Below are positions 21,215 through 21,974 of a DNA stretch of 64,000 nucleotides, in pieces. Numbering within the stretch: the stretch's first letter is position 1; each line of letters opens with the position of its first letter. Position numbers and translations under genes: made by a program. The DNA comes from Escherichia coli (lineage in GTDB: Bacteria > Pseudomonadota > Gammaproteobacteria > Enterobacterales > Enterobacteriaceae), in the NCBI RefSeq assembly GCF_048403405.1, contig NZ_CP183129.1, one strand, 5' to 3'. The notes beneath the pieces are model-generated. The model saw nothing but the letters and a program-made list of their open reading frames with translations. It had not been told where the DNA came from and did not search any database.

Positions 21215-21715
21215 ATGAGCAAAAAATTTGAAGGCAGCGTCGCGCCTCGCGAGCGTATAAATATATCCTATGTCCCGAAGACGGACGGCCAGACGGCTGA
21301 AGTGGAGCTTCCGCTTAACATGCTCGTTGTCGGCGATACCGGAAATACGCAGGAGACATCCCCACTGGATGAACGTCAGGCAGTTTCCGTTAACAAGCAC
21401 AATTTCGGTGCGGTGATGGCTGAAGCAGCCATTGGCCTCAATTTTACCGTCCCCGCCACGCTGAAGGGAAGCACAACGGACGATGAACTGAATGTGGCGC
21501 TGAATATCAAGTCACTGGATGATTTTTCACCGGACAGCGTGGCCCGGCAGGTTCCGGAAGTTAATAAATTGCTGGAATTGCGTGAAGCACTGACTGCGCT
21601 GAAGGGGCCGATGGGCAACCTTCCGGCATTCCGTACCCAGCTCCAGGCATTGCTGGAAAATGAGGAGTCCCGCGAGCAGTTGCTCAAAGAAATCGGCCAA
21701 GTGAGTGGGAAATAA
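21215..21715 (+). CDS. tssB: T6SS sheath small subunit TssB (VipA)
   Basis: 166 aa, MSKKFEGSVAPRERINISYVPKTDG... typical TssB. Confidence 0.9.
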   Translation: MSKKFEGSVAPRERINISYVPKTDGQTAEVELPLNMLVVGDTGNTQETSPLDERQAVSVNKHNFGAVMAEAAIGLNFTVPATLKGSTTDDELNVALNIKSLDDFSPDSVARQVPEVNKLLELREALTALKGPMGNLPAFRTQLQALLENEESREQLLKEIGQVSGK

Positions 21716-21974
21716 CCACCACTATTTCATTAAACAGGGTTATCCAGACATGGCGGCACACAAAAATATCTCCGGGAAAAACCCCCTCTCTGACGAAGAC
21801 ATTTTGCAGGCGGTTTACCGGGTATGTTTCAGCCCGTCCGGTGAAATCAACCGGGATGGCGTGGATGCGCTGATTACAACACTGGATCGCCGTATCAGTG
21901 ATCTATTGGATGAGATTATCCATTTTTGTGAGTTTCAGCAGAGCGCGTCGCACTGGCAGCGCGTACTTCACTGA
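21705..21974 (+). CDS. Small ORF (74-89 aa) paralogous to an N-terminal segment of TssC
   Basis: GVDALITTLDRRISDLLDEIIHFCEFQQSASHWQRV aligns with downstream TssC AVDSMIADIDERISRQMDVIIHAPAFQQVESFWRSL (17 of 36 identical); GTG at 21705 or ATG at 21750. Confidence 0.5.
   Translation: MGNNHHYFIKQGYPDMAAHKNISGKNPLSDEDILQAVYRVCFSPSGEINRDGVDALITTLDRRISDLLDEIIHFCEFQQSASHWQRVLH

What the first reader, a model, noticed from the sequence alone, without database searches (positions are those of the whole stretch)
21705..21974. Short ORF between tssB and tssC is a paralogue of an N-terminal segment of TssC
The 74-89 aa ORF shares 17 of 36 identical residues over one segment with residues ~65-100 of the downstream TssC (shared core RIS...D.IIH...FQQ...W). 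It fills the whole tssB-tssC intergenic space and overlaps the tssB stop. It could be a relic of a partial tandem duplication of the tssC 5' region, or a genuine small protein that competes with or mimics the TssC N-terminal region.
Basis: seen in the sequence. Interest (0 to 1): 0.55.

Follow-up and report, generated by a model that had tools for sequence, protein, structure and literature searches.

The report
Small tssC-derived gene between tssB, tssC
A 74-codon gene between the two sheath genes of an E. coli type VI secretion system is a shortened copy of the start of the large sheath gene; it was kept as a protein over long evolutionary time, but in E. coli and its relatives it now drifts and often breaks.

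Summary
ORF 21750-21974 (74 aa from the conserved ATG) is homologous to TssC residues 59-102 (BLASTP 17/40, E 6e-9; hhalign 97.5%, E 5e-12; weak hits to TssC models only). The window is an E. coli T6SS-2 locus. PGAP annotates the ORF as a hypothetical protein, and I found no paper that mentions it.

The roughly 300-nt tssB-tssC spacer carrying it occurs in all 19 loci with TssC at least 86% identical (Escherichia, Citrobacter, Salmonella, Atlantibacter, Yokenella and a third lineage). It is absent from all 51 more distant loci, whose spacers are 2-141 nt. It is therefore a single insertion of a tssC 5' fragment.

The evolutionary signal is split:
- **Between the three lineages**, substitutions are coding-like in this frame only (pS 0.69-0.77, pN 0.31-0.38, P down to 3e-7).
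- **Within Escherichia and the Citrobacter group**, substitutions are flat across codon positions (dN/dS about 1).
- **Frame breaks** occurred at least five independent times next to intact, strongly constrained tssB and tssC.

Best reading: a gene born from a tssC fragment that was long constrained as a protein and is now dispensable and decaying. The copied segment is the TssC helix that packs on the TssB C-terminal helix, so acting as a mimic is plausible but untested. Interest is moderate.

The parts
21215..21715 (+). tssB (small sheath subunit), 166 aa
   Evidence: TIGR03358 E 1e-50; PGAP tssB in the identical E. coli record
21716..22024 (+). 309-nt tssB-tssC spacer, an insertion specific to one sub-lineage of this T6SS type
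   Evidence: The spacer is 283-313 nt in all 19 loci with TssC at least 86% identical. It is 2-74 nt (one of 141 nt) in 51 loci with TssC at most 81% identical.
21736..21739 (+). Weak SD-like AGGG motif, its 3' end 10 nt upstream of the ORF ATG
   Evidence: Read from the sequence. A purine-rich GGGAG or GAGGGG motif sits at a similar position in the other two lineages. That it functions is an inference.
21750..21974 (+). Small ORF, 74 aa (MAAHKNISGK...HWQRVLH*). An alternative GTG start at 21705 would give 89 aa.
   Evidence: The ATG aligns in all three lineages. AF2 on a 16-sequence alignment predicts helix 15-26 and helix 35-73, mean pLDDT 85.
21834..21965 (+). TssC-like segment of the ORF (residues 29-72: PSGEINRDGVDALITTLDRRISDLLDEIIHFCEFQQSASHWQRV)
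   Evidence: hhalign 97.5%, E 5e-12; BLASTP 17/40. Between lineages pS is 0.83-0.93 against pN 0.34-0.38.
21975..22024 (+). Conserved 50-nt leader of tssC, with AAGGA 8 nt before the ATG
   Evidence: Only 6 changes in 48 sites in the Citrobacter group, against 96 in 210 for the ORF.
22025..23500 (+). tssC (large sheath subunit), 491 aa
   Evidence: TIGR03355 E 1e-211; closest solved structure is V. cholerae VipB, 5mxn, E 7e-247
22199..22330 (+). Paralogous segment of tssC (residues 59-102). It begins about where the ordered VipB model begins and includes the domain-3 helix.
   Evidence: 3j9g_B starts at query residue 64 and 5n8n_B at 66. P. aeruginosa TssC1 helix S66-M86 packs on TssB1 helix D117-L133 (PMC5807055).

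Best explanation
The ORF is a small gene that arose once, when a copy of the 5' part of tssC was inserted between tssB and tssC in the ancestor of one sub-lineage of this T6SS type. That sub-lineage includes E. coli T6SS-2 and related loci in E. albertii, Citrobacter, Salmonella, Atlantibacter, Yokenella and a third unnamed lineage.

It encodes a helical peptide of about 70 aa. Its residues 29-72 are a diverged copy of TssC 59-102, the first ordered part of TssC. This part contains the domain-3 helix that packs against the C-terminal helix of TssB.

The peptide was kept under protein-level purifying selection while the three lineages diverged (shown), so it was translated and useful. Within present-day Escherichia and the Citrobacter group that constraint is no longer detectable, and the frame has been broken repeatedly (shown). 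In most carriers today, including probably this E. coli, it is a dispensable, slowly decaying passenger. It is presumably co-transcribed within a tssB-tssC operon; co-transcription is an inference.

Its original role was most likely to bind the TssB C-terminal helix, or another partner of the TssC N-terminal region, and so modulate sheath assembly or recycling. This role is inferred from which segment was copied and has not been tested.
For: **Homology to TssC:**

**Single origin, lineage-restricted:**
- A spacer of about 300 nt is present only where TssC is at least 86% identical.
- Residues shared by the ORFs but not by TssC, such as xLIxxLDxRI against SMIADIDxRI, make the ORFs monophyletic.
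- IIH is shared only with the TssC of these same lineages.

**Past protein-level constraint:**
- In the ORF frame, between-lineage pS is 0.69-0.77 and pN 0.31-0.38, Fisher P 5e-6 to 3e-7. The two control frames give pS about equal to pN.
- Amino-acid identity is 31/74 against a permutation null of 19.3 +/- 2.8, and 32/69 against 23.3 +/- 2.8. There is no excess in the control frames.
- On the stem branch, changes by codon position are [19,12,30].
- There is no excess similarity to the tssC of the same clade, so gene conversion does not explain the signal.

**Present relaxation:**
- Changes by codon position are [31,35,30] within the Citrobacter group. The same genomes give tssB [34,10,106] and tssC [29,14,161].
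- The four intact Escherichia alleles give [12,12,5].
- dN/dS is 1.04 between the window allele and the O157 allele.
- Branch test z values are -1.2 and -0.1.

**Disruptions:**
- C. youngae has a TGA.
- Yokenella has a +1 frameshift plus a TAG.
- A Salmonella contig has a TAG.
- The E. albertii type strain has a frameshift, a stop and an 18-nt deletion.
- L083 has a premature TGA, and L082 has lost the usual stop.
- The neighbouring tssB and tssC stay full length with omega 0.03-0.13.

**Structural meaning of the copied segment:**
Against: - The ORF is intact, with no indel, in 59 of 59 sampled complete E. coli genomes, and intact 70-aa versions exist in several genera. This would also fit a gene that still works. 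However, E. coli alleles differ by at most 6%, and loci fetched through called proteins are biased towards intact frames.
- Relaxation in separate crown groups has to have happened independently, which is not parsimonious.
- The third lineage still shows pN/pS of 0.48 (P 0.012) within the clade.
- The SD-like motif is weak and far from the ATG.
- No expression data were found.
- The binding partner is pure inference.
Confidence: 0.5

Rival explanations
1. Pure relic. The spacer is a dead-on-arrival fragment of tssC left by a partial duplication. It was never translated to any effect, and the open frame in E. coli is chance survival of a short sequence.
For: - Within-clade substitutions are flat over codon positions, at about the rate of flanking third positions: 0.46 against 0.64-0.70 per site in the Citrobacter group, and 0.13 against 0.10-0.16 in Escherichia.
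- dN/dS is about 1 in E. coli.
- Three nonsense changes among about 110 substitutions in the Citrobacter group is close to the roughly 4% expected from the genetic code (the expectation is my calculation).
- There are several independent frame breaks.
- There is no strong SD.
Against: - The between-lineage comparisons show a strong coding signature in this frame only. It includes synonymous codon-family switches at conserved residues, such as Arg CGT against AGG in LDxRI (alignments).
- My permutation test, which keeps the identity of the changed base, does not reproduce the signal.
- Gene conversion from tssC is not supported.
Confidence: 0.15
2. Currently functional, fast-evolving accessory protein. 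The 74-aa peptide is made in E. coli. It binds the TssB C-terminal helix, or ClpV, as a mimic of the TssC N-terminal region, and so tunes sheath assembly or disassembly. The within-clade changes would then reflect weak or diversifying selection rather than decay.
For: - Long-term protein-level constraint.
- The frame is intact in all sampled complete E. coli genomes carrying the locus and in many Citrobacter and Salmonella loci.
- The window allele keeps motifs shared with the distant third lineage (PLSDEDILQAVYRV against PLSDEAIIQAFLRL; VDALI..LD.RI).
- The AF2 model is confident and helical.
- The copied segment is the TssC helix that contacts the TssB helix required for TssB-TssC binding.
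Against: - There is no purifying signature within Escherichia or the Citrobacter group, despite 29-110 inferred changes.
- 'Intact' copies carry radical substitutions in the motif conserved across lineages: L to P in LDQRI, H to P, I to D, and D to G in MDEIIH.
- The commonest E. coli allele has 11 non-synonymous against 3 synonymous differences from the window allele, including SDED to SVAD.
- The frame is broken in lineages that keep constrained sheath genes.
Confidence: 0.25
3. Cis-acting role. What matters is that something is translated across the long tssB-tssC gap, for example to avoid Rho-dependent polarity on tssC, or that the spacer holds a regulatory RNA or promoter. The amino-acid sequence itself would be irrelevant.
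For: - Spacer length is nearly constant: 309 nt in 59 of 59 sampled E. coli genomes and 283-313 nt overall.
- Within clades the sequence drifts while the frame usually stays open.
- The last 50 nt before tssC are strongly conserved.
Against: - It does not explain amino-acid conservation between lineages.
- Stops early in the frame are tolerated (C. youngae codon 21, Yokenella).
- There is no promoter-like or terminator-like site in the spacer.
- There is no Rfam match.
- There is no conserved or unusually stable RNA fold, z -0.9.
Confidence: 0.1

Closest known systems
TssC / VipB, the large subunit of the T6SS contractile sheath (TIGR03355; Pfam PF05943 + PF18945)
   Same: ORF residues 29-72 are homologous to TssC 59-102. 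This is the start of the Pfam VipB domain, about where the ordered VipB model begins, and it contains the domain-3 helix that pairs with the TssB C-terminal helix.
   Different: The ORF has 74 aa against 491. It has none of the sheath fold (domains 1 and 2, VipB_2). It scores 19.7 bits against a 271.5-bit cutoff. It evolves about 2-5 times faster at non-synonymous sites than TssB and TssC between lineages. It cannot be a sheath subunit.
TagJ/HsiE1 and other small T6SS accessory proteins that bind sheath components
   Same: If functional, it would be a lineage-restricted, dispensable small protein encoded next to the sheath genes and acting on TssB, TssC or ClpV. TagJ binds TssB and recruits ClpV in one T6SS class (title and abstract of PMC4239648, listed; the rest is from my own knowledge).
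   Different: There is no sequence relationship: the only family hits are to TssC. Its origin is different, by fragment duplication of a core gene. No interaction has been shown for the ORF.
Partial-duplication gene relics and pseudogene fragments in bacterial operons
   Same: It is a truncated copy of a neighbouring gene. It drifts neutrally within present clades and has recurrent nonsense and frameshift lesions.
   Different: A relic should not show frame-specific purifying selection between lineages, and this ORF does.

Membership tests
TssC/VipB sheath large subunit (TIGR03355, PF05943/PF18945) | Whole-protein score above the curated NCBIfam cutoff (271.5 bits) | tested here: not met
   19.7 bits, E 3e-4, covering only profile positions 44-82 of 473. 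The adjacent real TssC scores 703.9 bits.
TssC/VipB sheath large subunit (TIGR03355, PF05943/PF18945) | Presence of the sheath fold: VipB domain of about 300 residues plus the VipB_2 C-terminal domain | tested here: not met
   Pfam matches only VipB model positions 1-33 of 301 and finds no VipB_2. The AF2 model is two helices.
TssC/VipB sheath large subunit (TIGR03355, PF05943/PF18945) | Sequence homology to the family (common descent of the segment) | tested here: met
   hhalign 97.5% probability, E 5e-12 over 44 columns; BLASTP E 6e-9
Protein-coding gene under selection | Frame-specific excess of synonymous over non-synonymous change | tested here: inconclusive
   Met between lineages: pN/pS 0.45-0.64 uncorrected, P down to 3e-7, with control frames near 1. 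Not met within Escherichia (about 1.0) or within the Citrobacter group, where codon positions are flat.
Protein-coding gene under selection | Reading frame intact in orthologous loci | tested here: inconclusive
   Intact in 59 of 59 sampled E. coli genomes and in many Citrobacter, Salmonella and Atlantibacter loci. Broken in C. youngae, Yokenella, one Salmonella contig, the E. albertii type strain and L083. Among GTDB species representatives, 2 of 5 are intact.
Protein-coding gene under selection | Evidence of translation (Ribo-seq, MS) | not testable with these tools
   No paper in the library mentions the ORF (Z0263 in EDL933).
Pseudogene / duplication relic | Neutral substitution pattern and rate | tested here: inconclusive
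   Neutral within clades; not neutral between clades.
Tandem partial duplication of tssC 5' end including its start and RBS | ORF start region paralogous to the tssC start region | tested here: inconclusive
   - The local alignment is not significant, p 0.06-0.39.
- In-register identity is 15-20 of 60 against 15 +/- 3 for other shifts.
- ORF 1-28 against TssC 1-58 gives hhalign E 0.098.
- Only the geometry fits: the ATG lies 29-34 nt after the tssB stop, compared with 20-31 nt in the nearest outgroups.
Known sheath-binding accessory proteins (e.g. TagJ) | Sequence membership in a described accessory family | tested here: not met
   No Pfam or NCBIfam hit other than TssC.

The most novel reading that the evidence does not exclude
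The peptide is a working 'mini-TssC'. It would be a free copy of the TssC domain-3 helix, possibly together with a degenerate copy of the ClpV-binding N-terminal helix. It would bind the TssB C-terminal helix or ClpV and so gate sheath polymerisation or recycling in E. coli T6SS-2. That would make it a regulator built by fragment duplication of a core structural subunit.
Probability: 0.2. Interest if true: 0.65.

Novelty: new variant of a known kind. Interest (0 to 1): 0.42.

Why it matters
T6SS-2 is present in about 40% of complete E. coli genomes, including O157:H7, and the ORF is annotated everywhere as a hypothetical protein with no study behind it.

If the peptide works, it would be a new kind of T6SS accessory factor: a free-standing mimic of the subunit interface that holds TssB and TssC together. 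It would give a simple handle on sheath assembly. Even if it no longer works, it is a clear, datable example of a gene born from a fragment of a neighbouring core gene, selected for a long time, and now being lost in parallel in several genera.

For annotation, it shows that this 'hypothetical protein' is a TssC-fragment paralogue, not a core component.

Tried and rejected
1. **Recent duplication.** Rejected: the two segments share only 70/129 nt.
2. **Import from a different TssC subtype.** The ORF segment is about equally similar (14-18 of 43) to many TssCs, with its own among the best. Only the 'IIH' shared with the TssC of these lineages hints at a local origin. There is no resolution beyond that.
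3. **Gene conversion from tssC as the source of the coding signature.** There is no excess identity to the tssC of the same clade.
4. **Homology of the ORF N-terminal part to TssC 1-58.** This would include the ClpV-binding helix (SLLDQIMAQ against LSDEDILQ) and the start (MSLRKD against MSLQEE). It is not significant.
5. **Paralogy of the ORF start/RBS with the tssC start/RBS.** Not significant.
6. **Promoter or terminator in the spacer.** None found.
7. **Known RNA family.** None found.
8. **Conserved RNA structure.** Weak alifold energy, z -0.9.
9. **Antisense gene.** There is no minus-strand ORF of at least 40 aa inside the spacer.
10. **Literature.** Nothing on Z0263, on fragments of tssC, or on an ORF between tssB and tssC.
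11. **Frameshifted protein variants in the protein database** (P0011, P0012, P0016, P0017). I could not tell real changes from assembly errors at the AAAAACCCCC run, so I did not count them as disruptions.

Full report
**Where this is.** The window is Escherichia coli. Region 21100-22400 is 100% identical to strain 4621, and the region is present in 2275 of 5426 complete E. coli genomes. The surroundings are a complete type VI secretion locus:
- hcp (20000-20518, minus strand), vgrG and an Rhs gene lie upstream.
- On the plus strand come tssB (21215-21715), the ORF, tssC (22025-23500), tssE, tssF, tssG, tagH, tssJ, tssK, tssL, tssH/clpV, tssM and a TssA-like gene.
- In EDL933 the review table lists TssB as Z0264 and TssC as Z0262 (PMC6730261). 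This is therefore the E. coli 'T6SS2' cluster, and the ORF is what lies between those two loci.
- That system is reported to be functional and H-NS-repressed in EHEC (PMC5363993).

**The observation.**
- The ORF runs 21705-21974 from a GTG (89 aa) or 21750-21974 from an ATG (74 aa). PGAP annotates the ATG form as a hypothetical protein.
- BLASTP against the downstream TssC gives 17/40 identities without gaps, E 6e-9.
- The only family models that see the ORF are the TssC models, and weakly: TIGR03355 at E 3e-4 and 19.7 bits against a 271.5-bit cutoff, and Pfam VipB at i-E 0.0025 on model positions 1-33.
- A profile of the ORF family against a profile of TssC N-termini gives 97.5% probability and E 5e-12. 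It aligns ORF 29-72 with TssC 59-102.
- At the DNA level the two segments share only 70/129 bases.
- The paralogy is therefore real and old. The ORF leaves 50 nt before tssC and overlaps tssB only in its GTG form.

**Distribution.** I retrieved 68 loci from species-representative genomes with TssC as query, and more through called proteins.
- Every locus whose TssC is at least 86% identical has a tssB-tssC spacer of 283-313 nt. These 19 loci come from Escherichia, E. albertii, Citrobacter, Salmonella, Atlantibacter, Yokenella and a third lineage known only from sequencing-run assemblies.
- Every one of the 51 more distant loci has 2-74 nt, with one of 141 nt. The nearest outgroups (Lonsdalea, Rahnella, Buttiauxella) have 20 nt.
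- The ORFs of the three lineages share residues that TssC lacks (xLIxxLDxRI against SMIADIDxRI). They also share 'IIH' with the TssC of these lineages only.
- This indicates one insertion of a tssC 5' fragment, probably from the locus itself.
- I could not show that the ORF's start codon and upstream region are the old tssC start. I also could not show that ORF residues 1-28 descend from TssC 1-58. Only the spacing fits.

**Is it a gene? Two clear and opposite signals.**

*Between the three lineages the ORF looks like a protein-coding gene.*
- In the ORF frame the proportion of synonymous sites that differ is 0.69-0.77 and of non-synonymous sites 0.31-0.38 (Fisher P 5e-6 to 3e-7). In the two other frames the proportions are about equal.
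- Amino-acid identity is 31/74 or 32/69, against 19.3 or 23.3 +/- 2.8 in permutations that keep the number and type of base changes. Again there is no excess in the control frames.
- The signal is strongest in the TssC-like part.
- On a parsimony tree, the stem between Escherichia and the Citrobacter group has changes by codon position of [19,12,30].
- There is no sign that each lineage's ORF was re-copied from its own tssC.

*Within lineages the signal is gone.*
- In the Citrobacter group, inferred changes are [31,35,30] by codon position. The same genomes give tssB [34,10,106] and tssC [29,14,161].
- The four intact Escherichia alleles give [12,12,5].
- The window allele and the O157-type allele differ by 11 non-synonymous and 3 synonymous changes, dN/dS 1.04, all in the first 41 codons.
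- The per-site rate of the ORF is 0.65-1 times that of flanking third positions.
- The third lineage keeps a weak signal, pN/pS 0.48, P 0.012.

*The frame is broken repeatedly*:
- A TGA at codon 21 in C. youngae.
- A +1 frameshift and a TAG in Yokenella.
- A TAG in a Salmonella contig.
- A frameshift, a stop and an 18-nt deletion in the E. albertii type strain.
- A premature TGA in L083 and loss of the normal stop in L082.

In those same loci tssB and tssC are full length with omega 0.03-0.13. By my estimate, three nonsense changes among about 110 substitutions is close to the roughly 4% expected from the genetic code. 'Intact' copies also carry radical changes in the motif conserved across lineages, such as L to P in LDQRI, H to P, and I to D in MDEIIH.

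In E. coli the frame is intact in all 59 sampled complete genomes. However, E. coli alleles differ by at most 6%, so this has little weight.

**What is constrained in the spacer today.** The last 50 nt before the tssC ATG, which carry its AAGGA, show 6 changes in 48 sites. The ORF shows 96 in 210. No promoter-like or terminator-like site, Rfam family or conserved RNA fold was found in the spacer.

**What the copied segment is.**
- The solved V. cholerae sheath models start at our TssC residue 64, and the P. aeruginosa model aligns from residue 66.
- In P. aeruginosa, the TssC1 helix S66-M86, the TssB1 helix D117-L133 and the TssC1 helix E39-E54 of a neighbour form the domain-3 three-helix bundle (PMC5807055).
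- By alignment, ORF residues about 37-57 (VDALITTLDRRISDLLDEIIH) correspond to that TssC helix.
- AlphaFold2 on a 16-sequence alignment predicts helix 15-26 and a long helix 35-73 with mean pLDDT 85.
- A role as a free mimic of this interface is therefore structurally reasonable, but nothing here tests it.

**Conclusion.** The most coherent account is a gene born from a tssC fragment. It was kept as a protein through the divergence of three locus lineages. It is now dispensable and decaying in the sampled Enterobacteriaceae, including probably this E. coli. I give this 0.5. The rivals are:
- A still-functional, fast-evolving modulator (0.25).
- A pure relic (0.15).
- A cis-acting or translation-only role (0.1).

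I found no literature on the ORF. It is not a TssC: it fails the family's score and fold criteria. It is a fragment paralogue of TssC. Interest is moderate. It is an undescribed, widespread small ORF with a clear origin and an unusual selective history, but there is no evidence that it does anything today.

Noticed in passing
L002 (E. coli O157:H7 NE92) 2425-3816, compared with window 22025-23500: tssC of the O157:H7 strain is annotated 84 nt shorter (1392 against 1476 nt) because of an earlier stop. The sheath gene itself is therefore C-terminally truncated in that lineage.
   Followed up: partly
window 21215-21974 compared with L002: Synonymous divergence between the window allele and the O157-type allele is 0.18 in tssB but 0.046 in tssC. 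All 14 differences in the ORF lie in its first 41 codons. This looks like a recombination breakpoint in the middle of the ORF. One change is a clustered GACGAA to GTTGCA.
   Followed up: partly
window 21975-22024: The 50 nt upstream of the tssC start are far more conserved than the rest of the spacer in all lineages. A small hairpin that would pair the region around the tssC start codon is predicted in the alignment.
   Followed up: partly
window 44597-44673 and 52821-58053: A tRNA-Asp lies just beyond the T6SS genes. A second tRNA-Asp follows, next to a complete rRNA operon (5S, 23S, tRNA-Ala, tRNA-Ile, 16S, all on the minus strand). The first is a likely boundary of the T6SS island.
   Followed up: no
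P0046 (99 aa, from the representative library): This is a called protein that joins the middle of TssB directly to the C-terminal half of a third-lineage ORF. It implies a deletion that fuses tssB to the ORF in some genome.
   Followed up: no
L081 1767-2653: In this contig tssC stops after 234 codons and is followed by a YafT-family gene. The T6SS locus is therefore truncated there, although the small ORF is intact.
   Followed up: no
L003 (MAG labelled Citrobacter sp. HRGM_Genome_0066): Its tssB-ORF-tssC region is 99-100% identical at protein level to E. coli and carries the E. coli-type ORF. The contig is probably E. coli DNA binned into a Citrobacter MAG.
   Followed up: no
window about 21100-21215 compared with L002: Many E. 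coli alleles are one base shorter than the window upstream of tssB (tssB starts at locus position 1615 instead of 1616). The single-base indel is in the hcp-tssB divergent promoter region.
   Followed up: no
window 39213-40619: The TssA-like protein at the end of the cluster matches both TssA models only weakly (83 and 39 bits, against cutoffs of 230 and 161). It is a divergent or partial TssA.
   Followed up: no
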